Part shown: in pieces, positions 6,786-27,160 of the stretch
How positions within the stretch are numbered: the stretch's first letter is position 1
Layout of the letters: the number at the start of each line of letters is the position of its first letter
IMG/VR virus record: IMGVR_UViG_2802429232_000006
Length of the DNA: 32,572 bases
Source: a virus
Taxonomy: Duplodnaviria; Heunggongvirae; Uroviricota; Caudoviricetes
Direction: 5' to 3' (one strand)
The notes under the pieces: generated by a model
Databases searched by the model: none
The model's input: only the letters and a program-made list of their open reading frames with translations
What the model was told of the DNA's origin: nothing
Program-made: the position numbers and the translations under genes

Positions 6786-7012
6786 ATACCCCATATAAGA
6801 GTTGTTCTTGCTCAACATGGCATCTGAACGCAAAGATAAAAGCCTGGGAGGCATACAGATAGTCCTGCTGTAAGTTAGTTGGAAAAAGATTGATTTACTT
6901 TATTACAGGAAGCCTCGATAAAATAATTCTAACGTGGATAAGGATATAAATTTATTATAATGAATCTGTCAATATTATAATAAATGTTATTTTTAAAGAG
7001 ATGAAAGGTAGG

Positions 7013-7042: not shown

Positions 7043-7082
7043 ATTAAATTCATGTAACTAGTAAATGCAAATGGAAAAAAGC

Positions 7083-8219
7083 ATGAGAATAAAATCACTG
7101 GAGACATATAACTCTCACAGTAAATTGAAAATTAATAAAATAGAATTCAAATCACTGACCTTATTGGTTGGTGCTTCAGGTGTAGGGAAAACACAAATAC
7201 TTCGTTCTATCAATAAAATAAAGTCTATCGCACATGGTGATTCCGTTAGTGGGTTTTGCTGGAACGTTGAGTTTAATGCTGAAGGTAATGATTATCAATG
7301 GTCTGGTGAGTTTGAGGCGCTGGAGGATTATGATGATTTTACTTATGGAATGTTTCATTTTGATGATGACGACAAGGTTGAACCAAAAATTATAAAAGAA
7401 GAAGTTAAAATCAATGGTTCAATTATTATCACCAGAAGTGGCGATGATATCGTTTATAATGACAGTAAAACAGTTAAGCTGGCTTCTACAGTTAGTATAG
7501 TTCATCACTTGCGTGAGGAAGATGATATTTCGGTTATACACAAGTCATTTTCACGAATTGTGCAAGTTGATGATGATGAAATGCATAAGGTGTTTCCTAG
7601 AAAAAATAAAGATGCTTCAGAGGATGAAGAGCTTAGCATCAATGATATCAGAGAGAAGTCATTCTCTTTGAGTGCTAAGTTGTATTTGTGTCAAGAAAAA
7701 CAACCAGTCTACTTTCATCAAATTAAAAATTCATTTGTGGAGATTTTTCCATATATTGAAGATATAAAGGTGGTTAAGGTTGATACAAGAGGGATTCCTT
7801 TCTTTGTTCATTCTGTATATGCACTCAAGGTTAAGGAAAGAGGGATTGATGAGTGGATTTCGCACAATTCAATGTCTACCGGGATGTTGAAAACATTTGT
7901 CCAACTGGCATATCTGCATCTTAGCCCGACGGGAACTGTGTTCTTAATTGATGAGTTCGAGAATGGCTTTGGTGTTAACTGTATTAATGATATAACAGAT
8001 GTGCTACTACATCATGGTAATGATGTTCAGTTTATTTTGACGAGTCATCATCCTTATATTATAAATAACATACCGCTTGATAACTGGAAAATTATTTCAA
8101 GGAAGGCCGGGGTTGTTGATAACTATTCTGCGGATTTTTTTAATTTAAAAGAATCCAATCATGAGGCGTTTACTAAATTAATAAATTTAAGCGTTTATTT
8201 TGATGGTGCGGATAGATGA
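7083..8219 (+). CDS. ABC-type / AAA_21-like ATPase, candidate defense-system component
   Basis: Longest ORF starts at 7065; ATG at 7083 (MRIKSLE...) fits the family N-terminus. Walker A GASGVGKTQ, Walker B VFLIDEFENG, H-loop-like LTSHHP, signature-like SMSTGM; acidic inserts; AT-rich codon usage unlike flanking phage genes. Confidence 0.8.
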   Translation: MRIKSLETYNSHSKLKINKIEFKSLTLLVGASGVGKTQILRSINKIKSIAHGDSVSGFCWNVEFNAEGNDYQWSGEFEALEDYDDFTYGMFHFDDDDKVEPKIIKEEVKINGSIIITRSGDDIVYNDSKTVKLASTVSIVHHLREEDDISVIHKSFSRIVQVDDDEMHKVFPRKNKDASEDEELSINDIREKSFSLSAKLYLCQEKQPVYFHQIKNSFVEIFPYIEDIKVVKVDTRGIPFFVHSVYALKVKERGIDEWISHNSMSTGMLKTFVQLAYLHLSPTGTVFLIDEFENGFGVNCINDITDVLLHHGNDVQFILTSHHPYIINNIPLDNWKIISRKAGVVDNYSADFFNLKESNHEAFTKLINLSVYFDGADR

Positions 8220-8926
8220 ATTTGTATATTTTGGCTGAGGGGCGACAAACAGAGCGAAGAATCTATCCGGCATGGATAGGCGTTCTATCTCCATCTTTAA
8301 AGCAAGTTGAGTGTTTGTCTGCAATAGATAAAAACAACTATTATTTTATAAGCGGCGAGGGATATCCTCGTATGATTGATGTGACGCTTATTAATGCAAT
8401 TAAAGATATACATGATAACCCTAAATTTACCGATTTTTGGGTTGTGCTAGACTCTGAAGGAGAGGATGTTGAGGCAAGGAGAGAGCTTGTTAGAAATAAG
8501 ATTGATTCTTCTGGTATAGATATATCTCATTGTGAAGTAAATATAATAGTTCAAAATCCGTGCATAGAAACGTGGGGGCTAGGGAATCGAGTCATTATTT
8601 CGCCAAATAAGTTGACTGAATCTTTTTTGGACTATTATGAGCACTATGATGTGTCATCCAATGATCCAGAGGGTATGGGAAAGCCTCTTGCCTATGACGG
8701 ATCAATTGCTAAGTATCACGAGAGTTATTTAAAAAGTATGCTTGCTTTAAGAAATGCAATGTATACGAAAAAAAATCCAGCAGCATTGATGGAGCCTTCA
8801 TATTTGCAACAGCTTATATCCAGAGCTTATGCTGAGGATGGACATATACCAAGCTTTAGGCATTTTCATACGTTGGCTACTCAGCTTGAGGCTAAAGCGA
8901 AAATGTTGGAAAGCCGTGTAGCGTAG
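8216..8926 (+). CDS. Partner protein with TOPRIM/DUF4276-like acidic motifs, candidate effector
   Basis: 236 aa; ATGA overlap with ATPase stop; N-terminal LYILAEG..E, later VVLDSEGED and NPCIETW motifs. Confidence 0.75.
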   Translation: MNLYILAEGRQTERRIYPAWIGVLSPSLKQVECLSAIDKNNYYFISGEGYPRMIDVTLINAIKDIHDNPKFTDFWVVLDSEGEDVEARRELVRNKIDSSGIDISHCEVNIIVQNPCIETWGLGNRVIISPNKLTESFLDYYEHYDVSSNDPEGMGKPLAYDGSIAKYHESYLKSMLALRNAMYTKKNPAALMEPSYLQQLISRAYAEDGHIPSFRHFHTLATQLEAKAKMLESRVA

Positions 8927-20927: not shown

Positions 20928-23549
20928 ATGAGCACGAAATTTAAAACCGTTATCACTACTGCCGGAGCCGCAAAGCTGGCTGCCGCCACTGTCCCCGGCG
21001 GGAAAAAAGTAACCCTGTCTGCAATGGCCGTGGGTGACGGAAATGGCAAATTGCCGGTGCCGGATGCCGGTCAGACGAAGCTGGTGCATGAGGTCTGGCG
21101 TCACGCTCTGAATAAAGTCAGCGTGGATAATAAGAATAAAAACTATATCGTGGCTGAACTGGTTGTACCGCCCGAAGTGGGCGGTTTCTGGATGCGTGAG
21201 CTTGGTCTGTATGACGATGTCGGAACACTGATTGCGGTCGCTAACATGGCAGAAAGCTATAAGCCTGAACTGGCTGAAGGCTCCGGACGTGCGCAGACCT
21301 GCCGCATGGTCATTATTGTCAGTAACGTGGCGTCCGTTGAGCTGAGTATTGATGCCAGCACAGTGATGGCGACACAGGATTACGTCGATGACAAAATCGC
21401 AGAGCATGAGCAGTCCCGCCGCCATCCTGACGCCACGCTGACAGAAAAAGGTTTTACCCAGTTAAGCAGTGCAACAAACAGCACCAGTGAAAAGCTGGCA
21501 GCAACGCCAAAGGCAGTAAAAGCAGCCTATGACAATGCTGAGAAACGTCTGCAGAAAGACCAGAACGGTGGTGATATTCCAGATAAGGGCGCTTTTCTGG
21601 ACAATGTTGGCGTTACCAGCCTGACGTTTATGAAACACAATGGAATGATTCCAACCACTGACAATCTTGACTCCTATGGCCCAGAAGAAAAATATCTTGG
21701 AACGTGGTCATGCCCGTCACAATCCACTGCAAAACCAGAGTCTGGTTACCCTGAAGATAAAGGCAATGGGGTTCTGGAAGTATTCAATGCTGGTCGCTTT
21801 CACTGCACACAACGCTACACTACCCGAACCGGTAATATTTACATTCGGATGCTTGATGCAGAATGGAACCCTGTCAGTCCTGTATGGAGTGCATGGAGAG
21901 TTATTACAAGCGGGACTCGCCCATTAAGCACGCCAATTGACCTGAATTCTTTAGGTGGTGCGGAACACCTGGGAATATGGCGCAATAGCAGTACATCAAT
22001 AGCCTCATTTGACCGTCATTTCCCGGAGGAAGGGAGTTTTGGGCAGGGTATTCTGGAAGTCTTTGAAGGCGGTCTGTATGGGAGGATGCAACGTTACACC
22101 ACCCGTAGTGGGACTATGTACATTCGTGGACTGACTGCCTCATGGGATGCAGAAAATCCACAATGGGAGGACTGGATTGCTGTTGGGTATCAGTCCACGG
22201 GATGGACTTATTCAGGGGATCTTGATGACCTTTTAAAGCCTGGTATTTATAGCGTTACGAAACAGGCCACAAATGCACCTGTCACCGACTCTAAAGATCT
22301 TGCTGTTGGCTCAATAGTTGAAGTGAAAAAACGTTGTGATATTGAATCGTATATCCAGACATACACGACTGTTTCAGCAACGGATGCCTATAAAAACCGG
22401 ACATTTCAGCGAACCCGCGCCAGCGGTGAAACTGACTGGGGGGAATGGGCGGAAGTATACAACTCAAAATCATTACTCACTAAATTAGGTGTCGGCGGTG
22501 TTACCGACAGGTTATCCAGTCTGGACTGGCAGACCTACGACTTTATACCGGGCAGCATGATAACTGTCAGGCTTTCAGATATGACCAATATTCCCGATGG
22601 GATGGAATGGGGCGTCATTGATACTAACCTGATAAATATCACTGTTGGCCCCAGTGAAGGCGGAGGTGTCGCCCGTTCAATGCAGGTATGGCGCAGCACT
22701 TCAAACAAAACCAACTATCGTTTTTTTACAGTCCGCTTATATGGAAATCCTGGGGAGCGTAGCTTCAATATTCGTCGGCTACCAATTATCGACGAAGCCC
22801 AGACATGGGAGGCAAAACAGACATTCAGTGCAGGCCTTTCTGGTGAACTGTCCGGCAATGCGGCTACAGCAACAAAGCTGAAAACGGCAAGGACAATTAA
22901 CGGCGTAAAATTTGACGGCTCGGCAAATATTGAAGCATTTCCGCCTGGTGTTCCGCTGCCGTGGCCATCAGATACACCACCTGCGGGCTATGCAATTATG
23001 CAGGGGCAGACGTTTGATAAGGCAGCATATCCGAAACTGGCTATAGCCTATCCTTCTGGTGTTATTCCAGATATGCGCGGCTGGACAATCAAGGGCAAAC
23101 CCGCCAGTGGGCGTGCCGTATTGTCACAGGAACAGGACGGGATTAAATCGCATACTCACAGCGCCAGTGCGTCAAATACGGACTTAGGAACGAAAACGAC
23201 CAGTTCATTTGATTACGGCACGAAGACGGTCAGTACATTTAACCACGGCACAAAATCAACGAACAGTACGGGCAATCATACGCACACTGTCGGTGGTGTT
23301 TATGGCGGCGACTCTGTCGGTGGAAAACAGCGTGTACAGGCTTCAGGAAACAATCAGGTGTCCAGCACCGCCGGAGCGCACGCCCATACGGTGGATATTG
23401 GTCAGCATAACCACACTGTAGGTATTGGTGCCCATGCACACACTGTGGCCCTGGGTGCGCACGGACACACCATCACGGTAAATGCTACGGGTAATACCGA
23501 AAACACCGTCAAAAACATCGCATTTAACTATATTGTGAGGCTTGCATAA
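20928..23549 (+). CDS. H: Tail fibre protein H (mosaic, extended C-terminal receptor-binding region)
   Basis: 873 aa versus about 669 in P2; N-terminal ~200 aa P2-H-like, then lower-GC region with tandem ~70-aa repeats and HxH-rich tip. Confidence 0.88.
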
Positions 23550-24127
23550 TGGCTTTCAGAATGAGTGCAGAAGCACAAACTATCCGCGTTTTCAATTTAC
23601 TTGATGGAACCAATGAATTTATTGGTGAAAGTGACGCATATATTCCGCCGCATACAGGTCTGCCTGCAAACAGTACAGATATTGCACCGCCTGATATTCC
23701 GGCGGGTTTTGCTGCCGTTTTCAATGCAGCTGAAATGAAATGGGAACTGATGGAAGACCATCGCGGAAAGACCGTCTACGAAACGAAAACGGGAGCAGCC
23801 ATTTATATTTCTGAACTTGGCGCATTACCTCCAGACGTGACAGCCATTTCCCCGGATGGGGATTATCAGAAATGGAACGGAAATGCGTGGGTGAATGATG
23901 AGAATGCAGAGCGTGATGCGCTTGTCAGAGCGGCTGACTCTCAGAAGAAAGAGCTGATTGCATATGCAGGTGAAATTATTGCCACGCTGCAGGATGCTGT
24001 CGATTTAGATATGGCTACCGAGGAAGAAAAGTTAAGCCTGACACACTGGAAAAAATACCGTGTGCTACTGAATCGCGTTCAGCCGGAAAATGCTCCGGAT
24101 ATAGAATGGCCAGAAATGCCGCAATAA
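23549..24127 (+). CDS. G: Tail fibre assembly chaperone G (Tfa family)
   Basis: 192 aa; 1-nt overlap with the H stop; Tfa-like sequence. Confidence 0.85.
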
Positions 24128-24455
24128 ATCGTATTAGCTCTGGTGTGAGATTACTCATCTATGGCACAGAGTAAAACCTAATCTGACTGTCCGCTCTGTG
24201 CTAGGAGCGGACGTGATGCATATCTGTCACCAAATTTAATGTGCCACTACAAACAGAGTATATAGTTGAATATTATAGTGCACCCCGGCCTCATGAATAT
24301 AACGGTGGATTACCGCCGAACGAGTCGGAAAATAGATACTGGAAAAACTCTAAAATCGAGGCCAGTTTTTGTTGTTCTCTACAATAATAATCGGATTTTC
24401 CCATGACAAGTTTAATAGTATTTAGGTGCCTGAAGTGAAGTTGAAGAAGCTATTG

Positions 24456-25535
24456 ATGAAAGTTGTGAAAGTGGTAAAGGAGCAGGTTCTAAGTACCGTT
24501 ATTTCGGGAATAATAGGCATAGCGGCTACAGTAGGGCTTTTCCATTTCACTTCACAGCCAATACGATCTGCTGATGTTCGCGAAAAATTAGTTGAAATGG
24601 CTCGGGAGTGCATCCAGCAGCAGCTTGCCACACATTTGGACTCAGTGGCGTTTGACTCAGTGGCTAGCGAGTCTCTCGATCTAAGCACCTCAAACTCCGT
24701 TGTAGTCTACGGAAGAGCTGTGAGCACAAATGGTGCCCTTAGCCGTTTCCTGATGGTCTTCGAGCCCTCTGGACAGAGTTTGATAGATAAGGTGGTTGGC
24801 AGACCTGGATTCTACGATATTGGGTATTGGGCAATCATCCCAGACGCAGGGGACGACGAGGTTGTGGCTTCTTCAGTAAACATTGAAGACCTCGACAAAG
24901 ATGGTAACAAGGACATACTAGTCCGCTTAAAGTCAACTTACGCGGATGGTGTATCCAAAGGGCTTCTTATACTTAAAAAGGATATCCATGATGTATGGCA
25001 TTTGATGGGGCTTCCATCAATGACAGAGATCATGCATTCCATTGCTGCAGGTCAGCCTCCCCAGCCGGAAGGTCTTCACCTTCCACTTCCGGCAATACAA
25101 TGGTTTAGTAATGACGAAAAACTCAAACCAAAGTCTGATATCAAACAATATCTTAATTGGGAAATTGACGAAGATAACTTGCAGGTCGCTGATTCCACTG
25201 GAAATCATTCTTTTTGGATGTTCAGAAACGGCACCAAGATAAAAATGTTCGAGAATGGACAAGCCGGCTACAAGCACTTTGGTGTACTGGTCAACATCAA
25301 TGATGAAGAGGCGATACAGGGAAGGCATCATCTCATGGTCAGCTTTTTCAAGATAGAGAATAATAGTTTGGTTCCTGATCCGAATTGGAACTGGGCCTAT
25401 CCCATGTTCTCTATCGGATTAGAGGATAGCCAAGAAGTTGAATTGAGTGACATGCAGGAAGCGGGCTTACAAGCTCATGTTTCTGGTAGCTCCGTTTTCG
25501 GCCTGACAGAGTTTGGGAAAATGGACTCAGATTAA
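24456..25535 (+). CDS. Hypothetical membrane-anchored protein, cargo at the Z/fun hotspot
   Basis: ATG at 24456 (359 aa) preferred; longest ORF starts at GTG 24426 (369 aa). Single N-terminal TM helix (VLSTVISGIIGIAATVGLFHF), then soluble domain with no recognisable catalytic motif; AT-rich relative to flanks. Confidence 0.7.
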   Translation: MKVVKVVKEQVLSTVISGIIGIAATVGLFHFTSQPIRSADVREKLVEMARECIQQQLATHLDSVAFDSVASESLDLSTSNSVVVYGRAVSTNGALSRFLMVFEPSGQSLIDKVVGRPGFYDIGYWAIIPDAGDDEVVASSVNIEDLDKDGNKDILVRLKSTYADGVSKGLLILKKDIHDVWHLMGLPSMTEIMHSIAAGQPPQPEGLHLPLPAIQWFSNDEKLKPKSDIKQYLNWEIDEDNLQVADSTGNHSFWMFRNGTKIKMFENGQAGYKHFGVLVNINDEEAIQGRHHLMVSFFKIENNSLVPDPNWNWAYPMFSIGLEDSQEVELSDMQEAGLQAHVSGSSVFGLTEFGKMDSD

Positions 25536-25846
25536 TATTCGCTAACCTTACCAACGAAGAGCAGGTCACAGGTATGGCCTAATTATGTTTTCAGAGGAGT
25601 CAGGGCTCAAGAATGCCCCCAGATAAGCCGTAAATCCTGTAGCGCAAAATCGTCTCAGATGACGCAGAGATATTAAAAACGCCTCAACCTGTTCATCAAT
25701 TAATTGATAGGTTGAACTGTTAGTTAAACTTTCACCAGCAGAAAGGTATGAACTTTTTCGACTCGCTCAAAGCTGGCTGTCAGAGCTGATAGCGTTTTGG
25801 CTACGTAAATTGTCAGTTGGAAACTGAGCGAGTACAAATCAAGACT

Positions 25847-25873
25847 GGCGGGCTGATTGCCCGCCTTTTCTTT
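25847..25873 (+). terminator. Rho-independent terminator
   Basis: GGCGGGC-TGATT-GCCCGCC followed by TTTTCTTT. Confidence 0.8.
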
Positions 25874-25969
25874 ATCTGTTGTTTCATCCACTGACCAGTC
25901 AGGTCAAATAGCGTCTCATGCACTGCCCAACAGAAAATAGTTGCACCCATTAACCACGGAGTTAAACGG
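25874..25969 (+). promoter_or_regulatory. Late promoter PF region (Ogr-dependent) upstream of FI
   Basis: Between a strong terminator and the FI start; contains palindrome CTGACCAGTCAG (25891-25902); assignment by P2 analogy. Confidence 0.45.
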
Positions 25970-27160
25970 ATGAGTGACTATCATCACGGCGTGCAGGTGC
26001 TGGAGATTAACGACGGCACCCGCGTCATTTCCACCGTATCCACCGCCATTGTTGGCATGGTCTGCACGGCCAGCGATGCGGATGCGGAAATCTTCCCCCT
26101 CAATAAACCGGTGCTGATTACCAATGTGCAGAGCGCAATTGCAAAGGCCGGTAAAAAAGGCACGCTGGCGGCGTCGTTGCAGGCTATCGCCGACCAGTCA
26201 AAACCGGTCACTGTTGTCGTGCGCGTGGAAGACGGAACCGGCGACGACGAAGAAACGAAACTCGCGCAGACCGTTTCCAATATCATCGGCACCACCGACG
26301 AAAATGGTCAGTACACCGGACTGAAAGCCCTGATGGGGGCTGAATCGGTTACCGGCGTTAAACCGCGCATTCTCGGTGTGCCGGGGCTGGACACCAAAGA
26401 GGTTGCCGTCGCACTGGCATCGGTATGCCAGGAACTGAATGCATTCGGGTATATCAGCGCATGGGGCTGTAAAACCATTTCCGAGGTGAAAGCCTACCGC
26501 CAGAATTTCAGCCAGCGGGAGCTGATGGTCATCTGGCCGGATTTCCTCGCATGGGATACGGTCACCAGTACCACCGCCACCGCGTATGCCACCGCCCGTG
26601 CGCTGGGTCTGCGTGCTAAAATCGACCAGGAGCAGGGCTGGCATAAAACGCTGTCCAATGTCGGGGTAAACGGTGTTACCGGCATCAGCGCATCTGTATT
26701 CTGGGATTTGCAGAAGTCTGGCACCGATGCTGACCTGCTGAACGAGGCAGGCGTCACAACGCTGGTTCGCCGCGACGGTTTCCGTTTCTGGGGTAACCGT
26801 ACCTGCTCTGATGACCCGCTGTTCCTCTTTGAAAGCTACACACGCACCGCGCAGGTACTGGCTGACACGATGGCTGAGGCGCACATGTGGGCTATTGATA
26901 AGCCTATCACCGCAACGCTGATCCGCGACATCATTGACGGCATCAATGCCAAATTCCGCGAACTGAAAAACAACGGTTATATTGTGGATGGCACATGCTG
27001 GTTCAGTGAAGAATCCAACGATGCGGAAACCCTCAAGGCCGGAAAACTGTATATCGACTACGACTATACACCGGTGCCTCCTCTCGAAAACCTGACCCTG
27101 CGCCAGCGTATTACTTCAAGATACCTGGCAAGTCTGGTCACCTCGGTTAACAGCAATTAA
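25970..27160 (+). CDS. FI: Tail sheath protein FI
   Basis: 396 aa, the P2 FI length. Confidence 0.93.
   Translation: MSDYHHGVQVLEINDGTRVISTVSTAIVGMVCTASDADAEIFPLNKPVLITNVQSAIAKAGKKGTLAASLQAIADQSKPVTVVVRVEDGTGDDEETKLAQTVSNIIGTTDENGQYTGLKALMGAESVTGVKPRILGVPGLDTKEVAVALASVCQELNAFGYISAWGCKTISEVKAYRQNFSQRELMVIWPDFLAWDTVTSTTATAYATARALGLRAKIDQEQGWHKTLSNVGVNGVTGISASVFWDLQKSGTDADLLNEAGVTTLVRRDGFRFWGNRTCSDDPLFLFESYTRTAQVLADTMAEAHMWAIDKPITATLIRDIIDGINAKFRELKNNGYIVDGTCWFSEESNDAETLKAGKLYIDYDYTPVPPLENLTLRQRITSRYLASLVTSVNSN

What the first reader, a model, noticed from the sequence alone, without database searches (positions are those of the whole stretch)
24426..25535. Orphan membrane-anchored protein of unknown function in the Z/fun hotspot
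Between tail fibre assembly gene G and tail sheath gene FI, where P2 carries the T5-exclusion gene Z/fun, lies a single AT-richer gene of about 359-369 aa (start ambiguity: GTG 24426 or ATG 24456). It has one N-terminal transmembrane helix and a large soluble domain with no Walker, HNH, HEPN, TIR or other motif I can recognise. It is flanked by roughly 300 bp and 430 bp of non-coding DNA, so it is not part of the late operons. A single-gene membrane protein in a known superinfection-exclusion hotspot is a strong candidate for an uncharacterised exclusion or abortive-infection factor.
Basis: partly seen in the sequence, partly recalled or inferred. Interest (0 to 1): 0.8.

Follow-up and report, generated by a model that had tools for sequence, protein, structure and literature searches.

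The report
Membrane-anchored cargo protein in P2 hotspot
A P2-like prophage of E. coli carries, in a slot known to hold anti-phage genes, one intact gene for a rare membrane-anchored protein whose large domain probably faces the periplasm; it is a reasonable but untested candidate for blocking other phages at the cell envelope.

Summary
The ORF is real (24456-25535, 359 aa; alternative GTG starts at 24435 and 24426). It lies between G and FI of a complete P2-like prophage. The same locus occurs in 52 of 5,426 complete E. coli genomes, many of them ST131, and in E. albertii, always intact.

It is not a true orphan. It matches PHROG 15038 and belongs to a rare family of about 60 clusters at 50% identity. 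All members have one N-terminal TM helix and a roughly 320-aa beta-rich domain, and the family is under purifying selection (dN/dS about 0.2).

No Pfam, PADLOC, NCBIfam or PDB sequence match exists. A confident AlphaFold model (pLDDT 90) has only partial fold matches, to FG-GAP blades and to the periplasmic proteins PliI and CarG. Charge bias and an FG-GAP-type Ca2+ loop point to a periplasmic domain.

The flanks are not plain non-coding DNA. Upstream holds an IS3 transposase remnant. Downstream is a 240-bp tail that travels with the gene.

Relatives sit in defence islands and mobile elements, often directly behind restriction or nuclease genes.

The best reading is an envelope-acting exclusion or protective factor (about 0.35). 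That function is inferred, not shown. This is a good experimental candidate, not a surprise.

The parts
24100..24212 (.). P2-core conserved segment (the 'left inverted repeat' of the Z region). It overlaps the 3' end of G and ends in the hairpin GTCCGCT-N10-AGCGGAC (24189-24212).
   Evidence: It aligns at 87-88% to AJ512683 and AJ512676 positions 7-115. The hairpin pattern has 1 match in the window against 0.01 expected by chance.
24213..24252 (+). Vestige of the left end of the imported cassette (GTGATGC...CCAAATTTAATGTGCCACTACAA).
   Evidence: Window 24188-24252 matches L005-L008 positions 6900-6970 at 76-79%. In those loci that segment lies upstream of a 245-aa gene that precedes the homologue.
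24253..24387 (+). C-terminal remnant of an IS3-family transposase (pseudogene). It sits where relatives carry a 245/272-aa gene.
   Evidence: PGAP annotates it as 'IS3 family transposase, incomplete, missing N-terminus' in NZ_CP151026 and NZ_CP015085. tblastn with the 245-aa protein finds nothing in the window.
24402..24455 (+). Conserved leader that travels with the gene. It holds the Shine-Dalgarno region (AAGGAG in relatives, AAGAAG here) and the alternative GTG starts at 24426 and 24435.
   Evidence: DNA homology to all relatives begins at 24383-24404.
24456..25535 (+). Coding sequence of 359 aa (WP_001516654.1 / WP_001599801.1, 'hypothetical protein'; PHROG 15038).
   Evidence: dN/dS is 0.15-0.26 against relatives. 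The gene is intact in all 11 P2-locus copies examined.
24486..24548 (+). Single transmembrane anchor, about residues 11-31.
   Evidence: Hydropathy analysis finds it in 31 of 31 aligned members and in 56 of 59 full-length family members. AlphaFold predicts a helix at residues 2-32.
24882..24917 (+). FG-GAP-type loop IEDLDKDGNKDI (residues 143-154), a putative Ca2+ site.
   Evidence: D145 and G150 are nearly invariant. The family profile hits FG-GAP repeat proteins only through this stretch.
25536..25762 (+). 3' tail co-inherited with the gene. In relatives it ends in a second copy of the boundary hairpin; here that end is fused to the P2 right repeat.
   Evidence: The tail is 69-84% identical among the close relatives. 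No covariation supports an RNA structure.
25763..25969 (.). P2-core conserved segment: the right inverted repeat (about 25754-25844), a bidirectional terminator (25847-25865) and the region upstream of FI.
   Evidence: It is 91-94% identical to P2, Wphi, L-413C and the P2-EC Z-region records. The terminator scan is.

Best explanation
The gene is a self-contained, horizontally mobile single-gene cargo module. The module comprises a leader of about 55 bp, the 359-aa ORF and a tail of about 240 bp. It was captured in the Z/fun hotspot of a P2-like prophage.

The product is a bitopic inner-membrane protein. A short basic N-terminus sits in the cytoplasm, followed by one TM helix. A roughly 320-aa two-lobed beta-rich domain, with one FG-GAP-type Ca2+-binding loop, sits in the periplasm.

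Most likely (inferred, not shown) it acts at the envelope of the lysogen. It would bind a periplasmic step of infection by other phages, for example the tail tip, a tail-associated cell-wall hydrolase, or the DNA-entry machinery. The effect would be superinfection exclusion rather than killing of the cell.

Shown here: the gene is intact and under purifying selection; the TM anchor and the architecture are conserved; the module is mobile and keeps defence-island company.

Inferred: the topology, expression in the lysogen, the target and the phenotype.
For: Location:
- The gene lies between G and FI of a complete P2-like prophage.
- This is the fun locus, published as a second P2 defence hotspot with three validated systems (PMC9519451).

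The gene is real and maintained:
- dN/dS is 0.15-0.26.
- All nearly invariant family residues are present in the window protein.
- The gene is intact in 11 of 11 P2 copies examined, and the full locus is present in 52 complete E. coli genomes.

Architecture:
- The TM anchor is found in 56 of 59 full-length members.
- The AlphaFold model has pLDDT 90.1 and pTM 0.84.

Periplasmic orientation:
- Mean net charge of the N-tail is +3.3, against +0.4 for the 25 residues after the TM. The N-tail is the more positive in 42 of 56 members, and distant members carry 10-20 Lys/Arg before the TM.
- The DxDxDGxKD/E loop is of the type found in secreted FG-GAP proteins.

Mobility and company:
- The same module, at 80-85% DNA identity, lies in CP4-57-like islands, a conjugative element and other prophages of Erwinia, Pantoea, Klebsiella and Pluralibacter.
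- More distant members lie next to GmrSD, NgoMIV, EcoRII and BamHI restriction-modification genes, DUF4238, HNH, AAA_13 and type I HsdR.

Not a virion protein:
- No match in 50,697 phage genomes.
- No BFVD fold match at E <= 1e-3.
Against: - No phenotype data exist, and there is no homology to any characterised exclusion or defence protein.
- Topology rests on charge statistics and analogy. For the window protein itself the bias is weak (+2 against +1).
- One relative (P0040) has an extra N-terminal hydrophobic segment. If real, it would put that protein's domain on the cytoplasmic side.
- No sigma-70-like promoter was found upstream, so expression in the lysogen is unproven.
- Two of twelve contexts are ordinary metabolic neighbourhoods.
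- The upstream IS3 scar shows that the cassette was damaged on or after capture.
Confidence: 0.35

Rival explanations
1. Envelope-protective lysogenic-conversion factor that is not aimed at phages. The periplasmic domain would bind or inhibit an incoming harmful molecule, such as a lysozyme, a bacteriocin, a T6SS peptidoglycan-targeting effector or a beta-lactam-like compound. It would act as an immunity or inhibitor protein that benefits the host.
For: - The best compact structural matches are the periplasmic lysozyme inhibitor PliI and the carbapenem-resistance protein CarG.
- Pfam PliI and CarG-like models share the FG-GAP-like loop that this protein also carries.
- The domain is probably periplasmic.
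- P2 hotspots also carry non-defence cargo such as cytolethal distending toxin (PMC9122126).
Against: - Neighbours of relatives are mostly anti-DNA defence genes. They are not toxin or effector loci.
Confidence: 0.22
2. Abortive-infection or effector protein. The anchor would tether a cytoplasmic sensor domain, or the protein would act as the membrane effector of the nuclease or restriction genes it often follows, and it would damage the membrane on infection.
For: - In several relatives the gene lies 25-180 bp behind a co-directional defence-type gene: HNH at 25 bp, HsdR at 29 bp, Dcm at 123 bp, AAA_13 plus a 297-aa gene, and a 245-aa gene.
- Single-TM proteins are common Abi effectors (PMC9122126).
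- P0040 has two hydrophobic segments.
Against: - The upstream partners all differ and none is conserved.
- The 245-aa neighbour occurs alone on 39 E. coli plasmids, beside a GIY-YIG nuclease, and is absent or frameshifted in other relatives.
- Family charge bias and the FG-GAP loop favour a periplasmic domain.
- A single TM helix with no amphipathic or pore-forming repeat is present, and there is no nucleotide-binding or nuclease motif.
Confidence: 0.15
3. Functionless passenger in this prophage. It would be the surviving half of a larger cassette whose 5' part, including its promoter and the 245-aa gene, was destroyed by an IS3 insertion and deletion. It would persist only because the acquisition is recent.
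For: - An IS3 transposase remnant sits exactly where L005-L008 and L015 carry the 245/272-aa gene, and the sequence upstream of that gene survives at 24213-24252.
- No promoter-like site was found upstream, and the SD is weakened from AAGGAG to AAGAAG.
- The P2 copies differ by only 0-3 nt, so selection within this lineage cannot be measured.
Against: - The ORF is intact in every copy seen, across E. coli, E. albertii, E. marmotae and Salmonella records.
- The family is under purifying selection, and several lineages keep the gene without the 245-aa neighbour.
- Published work reports that pseudogenes are rare in P2 hotspots (abstract of PMC13586616).
Confidence: 0.15
4. Virion structural or tail-assembly protein of this P2 lineage.
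For: The gene sits between tail genes and on the same strand.
Against: - It is absent from all 50,697 sequenced phage genomes, including P2 relatives that share the flanking genes.
- Homologues lie in non-phage islands and conjugative elements.
- It has a TM anchor, and there is no BFVD fold match.
Confidence: 0.02

Closest known systems
P2 Fun(Z) and the other cargo of the P2 Z/fun hotspot (second P2 defence hotspot of Vassallo et al. 2022)
   Same: Same insertion slot between G and FI, bounded by the same conserved left and right repeats. It is a single cargo gene that is AT-richer than the late genes.
   Different: There is no sequence similarity to P2 Fun(Z) or to any gene in 50,697 phage records, and none to the PD-T4, PD-T7 or PD-lambda models in PADLOC. 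The function is untested.
Membrane-located superinfection-exclusion proteins of phages (T4 Imm and Sp, P22 SieA, HK97 gp15, T5 Llp, phi80/N15 Cor). This comparison is from general knowledge and was not tested by homology.
   Same: Phage-encoded, small single-gene systems located in the envelope. The proposed mode of action is blocking entry in the periplasm or membrane.
   Different: No sequence or fold relationship was detected: BFVD gave no hit at E <= 1e-3. The protein is much larger than Imm, Sp or Cor, and has a two-lobed beta-rich ectodomain with an FG-GAP-type loop.
PliI (PF16743) and CarG-like (PF21955) periplasmic proteins
   Different: No Pfam or profile match, and only 10-13% identity. 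The protein here is membrane-anchored, three times larger, and has a second conserved lobe (RNGG, HxxVxFF and DxxWNWGYPM motifs) with no counterpart.
FG-GAP / VCBS repeat beta-propellers (PF01839, PF13517). UniRef labels one relative 'VCBS repeat-containing protein'.
   Same: One loop, I-E-D-L-D-K-D-G-N-K-D-I, matches the Ca2+-binding repeat signature. The family profile retrieves FG-GAP proteins through it.

Membership tests
PHROG 15038 (phage protein family of unknown function) | Full-length match to the family HMM | tested here: met
   E 4.7e-259; residues 11-369 of the GTG form match profile positions 1-359 of 359.
P2 Fun(Z) | Sequence homology to the P2 Z/fun gene product | tested here: not met
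   tblastn against 50,697 phage records, which include P2, found no match at E <= 1e-3.
P2 Fun(Z) | Position between G and FI, inside the conserved Z-region repeats | tested here: met
   Alignment to the Z-region records AJ512683 and AJ512676.
Known anti-phage defence systems (PADLOC-DB v2.0.0, 5,027 models) | HMM match to a component of a known or candidate system | tested here: not met
   0 families at E <= 10.
FG-GAP / VCBS beta-propeller | Several tandem FG-GAP repeats recognised by PF01839 or PF13517 | tested here: not met
   No Pfam hit for this protein or for any of 31 relatives. Only one DxDxDG loop is present. True FG-GAP proteins match the family profile only over positions 131-177.
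PliI / CarG-like periplasmic proteins | Match to PF16743 or PF21955, or a clear fold match | tested here: inconclusive
Superinfection-exclusion membrane proteins (functional class) | Encoded by a prophage and located in the cell envelope | tested here: met
   The gene lies in a complete P2-like prophage. The TM anchor is conserved. The location is predicted only.
Superinfection-exclusion membrane proteins (functional class) | Expressed in the lysogen, and blocks adsorption or DNA entry of other phages without killing the cell | not testable with these tools
   This needs expression data and phage assays. No sigma-70-like promoter was found upstream.
Abortive-infection membrane effectors (functional class) | Toxic on activation, with protection lost at high MOI | not testable with these tools
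The predicted periplasmic domain argues weakly against this class.
Two-gene cassette with the 245-aa upstream gene | The partner gene is conserved next to the family member | tested here: not met
   The partner is present in L005-L008 and L015 and frameshifted in L017. It is absent from the window, L009-L014 and L018. It occurs alone on plasmids.

The most novel reading that the evidence does not exclude
The gene may found a new family of periplasm-facing, Ca2+-binding, membrane-anchored phage-exclusion proteins. Such proteins would work at the entry step and would be unrelated to any known Sie protein. They would spread as a compact hairpin-bounded cassette that hops between P2 hotspots, integrative islands and conjugative elements, often docking at the 3' end of restriction or nuclease operons. 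This would pair an 'outside' barrier with an 'inside' DNA-targeting defence.
Probability: 0.15. Interest if true: 0.7.

Novelty: new variant of a known kind. Interest (0 to 1): 0.45.

Why it matters
- The P2 hotspots are a proven source of new anti-phage systems. This gene sits in the less explored one, the Z/fun locus.
- It is carried by a prophage found in many ST131 (O25b:H4) clinical isolates. Any exclusion activity would therefore bear on the phage susceptibility of a pandemic lineage.
- Mechanistically, most newly described defences act in the cytoplasm. A periplasmic entry-blocking protein with a new fold would add to a thinly populated class.
- The family is small, compact at 1.4 kb with its flanks, and easy to clone, so the hypothesis is cheap to test.
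- If it proves not to be anti-phage, a PliI/CarG-like inhibitor role would still be a new lysogenic-conversion function.

Tried and rejected
- **Sequence searches against Pfam, NCBIfam, PADLOC and PDB**, with the single protein, with all 31 relatives, and with whole-protein and domain-1 profiles. Only noise or the FG-GAP loop came back.
- **Fold libraries.** afdb50 was not available. BFVD gave nothing.
- **Obligate two-gene system with the 245-aa upstream gene** (it contains an RNIMAH stretch that looks like a HEPN motif). Rejected because the partner is not conserved, has no Pfam or PADLOC hit, and occurs alone on plasmids.
- **Conserved 3' tail as an sRNA or antitoxin RNA.**
  - Covariation term is +0.4, no ORF is conserved, and identity is only modestly above that of synonymous sites.
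  - The Rfam PrrB/RsmZ hit at 25751-25873 is 22 bits against a gathering score of 44, and lies in P2-core DNA. It was treated as chance.
- **Literature search for the accession numbers.** No paper was found.
- **A second word-indexed homology search with the profile.** It added nothing new.
- **Nilsson et al. 2004 (doi 10.1093/molbev/msg223).** The paper is not held in the library.

Full report
**1. Observation**

The window is a complete P2-like prophage. It runs from the integrase at 1093-2106 through A, Q, P and the late genes to FI, FII, T and D.

The reported ORF exists. It spans 24426-25535 on the + strand, giving 369 aa from GTG or 359 aa from ATG 24456. It lies between the tail-fibre assembly gene G (23549-24127) and the sheath gene FI (25970-27160). 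GC falls to 0.39-0.47 across the insert, against 0.52-0.59 in FI and beyond.

PGAP calls the 359-aa form (WP_001516654.1 / WP_001599801.1, 'hypothetical protein'). PHROG 15038 matches from residue 11 of the GTG form. Relatives have AAGGAG 6 nt before that ATG, where the window has AAGAAG. GTG 24435 and GTG 24426 remain possible starts. The 369-aa relative P0009 begins MPTVTLKE, which resembles MPEVKLKK from the 24426 start.

**2. Anatomy of the insert**

Alignment to the published P2-EC58 and P2-EC30 Z-region records fixes the borders of the foreign DNA:
- P2-core sequence ends at about 24212, in a hairpin GTCCGCT-N10-AGCGGAC.
- P2-core sequence resumes at about 25763.

The two flanks therefore hold the following:
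- 24213-24252: a vestige of the cassette's original left end.
- 24253-24387: the C-terminal remnant of an IS3-family transposase (a PGAP pseudogene).
- 24402-24455: a 54-bp leader conserved with the gene.
- 25536-25762: a 227-bp tail that is inherited with the gene in unrelated genomes.
- 25763-25969: P2 core, comprising the right repeat, a strong bidirectional terminator at 25847-25865 and the FI upstream region.

**3. Distribution**

- The whole locus, at 99.7-99.9% identity, is in 52 of 5,426 complete E. coli genomes. Many are O25b:H4/ST131.
- It is also in E. albertii NBRC 107761 and in eight IMG/VR P2-like contigs.
- All 11 copies examined are intact and carry the same IS3 scar, so this was a single capture event.
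- The gene is absent from 50,697 sequenced phage genomes and from 72,556 plasmids. It is therefore not related to P2 Fun(Z).

**4. The family**

- A word-indexed search of 5.8 billion proteins found 15 clusters at 43-99% identity.
- An exhaustive HMM search of 1.84 billion representatives found 67 hits at E <= 1e-3. Nearly all are 310-420 aa with the same architecture.
- The close group (79-82% identity) is in Erwinia, Pantoea, Klebsiella, Pluralibacter, Enterobacter and Serratia.
- dN/dS is 0.15-0.26.
- Nearly invariant residues are G86, D145, G150, D164, W181, F217, N258, D283, H291, D308, W311, N312, S319 and G337. All are present in the window protein.
- No member has a Pfam domain.

**5. 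Structure and topology**

With 31 diverse sequences, AlphaFold gives a confident model (pLDDT 90.1, pTM 0.84). Its elements are:
- a TM helix at residues 2-32;
- a helix at 38-57 packed on a beta-sheet;
- two beta-rich lobes, at about 60-185 and 214-355.

The loop IEDLDKDGNKDI is an FG-GAP-type Ca2+ signature. The family profile retrieves genuine secreted FG-GAP repeat proteins only through this loop.

The TM anchor is present in 56 of 59 full-length members. The N-tail carries a mean net charge of +3.3, against +0.4 for the 25 residues after the TM. Distant members have 10-20 Lys/Arg before the TM. By the positive-inside rule (established knowledge) the N-terminus is cytoplasmic and the large domain periplasmic. 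This is an inference, and it is weak for the window protein taken alone.

**6. Genomic company**

The same module recurs at 80-85% DNA identity, with homology starting at 24383-24404 and ending at 25755-25773. It is found in:
- CP4-57-like islands;
- an integrase-adjacent island;
- a conjugative element beside DUF4238 and EcoRII;
- a prophage region between unknown genes and GmrSD, near NgoMIV.

More distant members lie 25-140 bp behind HNH, type I HsdR, Dcm, or an AAA_13 gene plus a 297-aa gene. Two members lie among metabolic genes.

DUF4238 was validated as a P2-hotspot defence by Rousset et al. (PMC9122126). The fun locus is described as a second P2 defence hotspot by Vassallo et al. (PMC9519451).

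No upstream neighbour is conserved. A 245-aa gene precedes the homologue in L005-L008 and L015, and it is frameshifted in L017. The window keeps the DNA that lies upstream of that gene, but has the IS3 remnant in the gene's place. That 245-aa gene also occurs alone on 39 E. coli plasmids, behind a GIY-YIG nuclease. It is therefore a separate module and not an obligate partner.

**7. Interpretation**

Firm conclusions:
- The gene is real and maintained.
- It encodes a bitopic membrane protein.
- It is mobile single-gene cargo.

Probable conclusion:
- The large domain faces the periplasm.

Inferred function, with my probabilities:

| Reading | Probability |
|---|---|
| Envelope-level exclusion of other phages | about 0.35 |
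| Non-phage envelope immunity or inhibitor role, PliI/CarG-like | about 0.22 |
| Abortive-infection or effector role | about 0.15 |
| Silent passenger left by the IS3 event | about 0.15 |
| Virion protein | about 0.02 |

Expression is the weakest link. No sigma-70-like promoter was found upstream, and the hairpin after G has no T-run. Read-through from the late operon therefore cannot be excluded.

**8. Novelty and verdict**

The hotspot and the concept of defence cargo in P2 are known. The gene itself is catalogued, but it is unnamed and unstudied: no paper cites its accessions. The protein has no detectable relative among characterised families or solved folds.

I rate it a new variant of a known kind, namely prophage hotspot cargo that is probably an envelope-acting protective protein. 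Interest is moderate: it is a well-defined, cheap experimental candidate rather than a surprise.

Noticed in passing
window 7065-8926: The other P2 hotspot, between A and Q (the old/tin position), carries a two-gene AbiL-like pair. It consists of a 384-aa AAA_21 ATPase (PADLOC AbiLi, E 8e-19) and a 236-aa RloB-like protein (AbiLii, E 8.5e-6). This prophage therefore carries cargo in both hotspots.
   Followed up: partly
window 24189-24212; L005-L008 6902-6923 and 9298-9319; L007 4747 and 6862; L015 4653-4674: A hairpin, TCCGCT-N10-AGCGGA, ends the P2 'left inverted repeat'. It also brackets the homologous cassette in unrelated Enterobacterales islands. The P2 right repeat begins with half of the hairpin (TCGCTCAAAGC). 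It looks like a shared recombination or boundary element for cassette exchange.
   Followed up: partly
window 24253-24387: A C-terminal remnant of an IS3-family transposase, with no remaining IS ends, lies inside the hotspot. It is fixed in all copies of this P2 lineage that were examined.
   Followed up: partly
L005 7086-7823; L015 2360-3178; L032 4017-4745: A 245/272-aa protein of unknown function contains an RNIMAH (Rx4H, HEPN-like) stretch and has no Pfam or PADLOC hit. It precedes the homologue in some islands. On 39 E. coli plasmids it sits directly behind a GIY-YIG nuclease gene. It may be an uncharacterised defence component.
   Followed up: partly
window 25724-25891 (- strand): PGAP annotates a 55-aa 'hypothetical protein' here. 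It spans the P2-conserved right repeat and the bidirectional terminator, so it is probably a spurious gene call.
   Followed up: no
window 25751-25873: A weak Rfam hit to PrrB/RsmZ (22 bits against a gathering score of 44, E 0.016) covers the P2 right repeat plus the terminator. It is most likely chance.
   Followed up: no
L011 5921-7507; L009 5921-7507: In one group of relatives, a 275-aa protein and a 251-aa protein lie upstream of the homologue and next to GmrSD. The 251-aa protein has N-terminal hydrophobic segments. Neither has a known domain.
   Followed up: no
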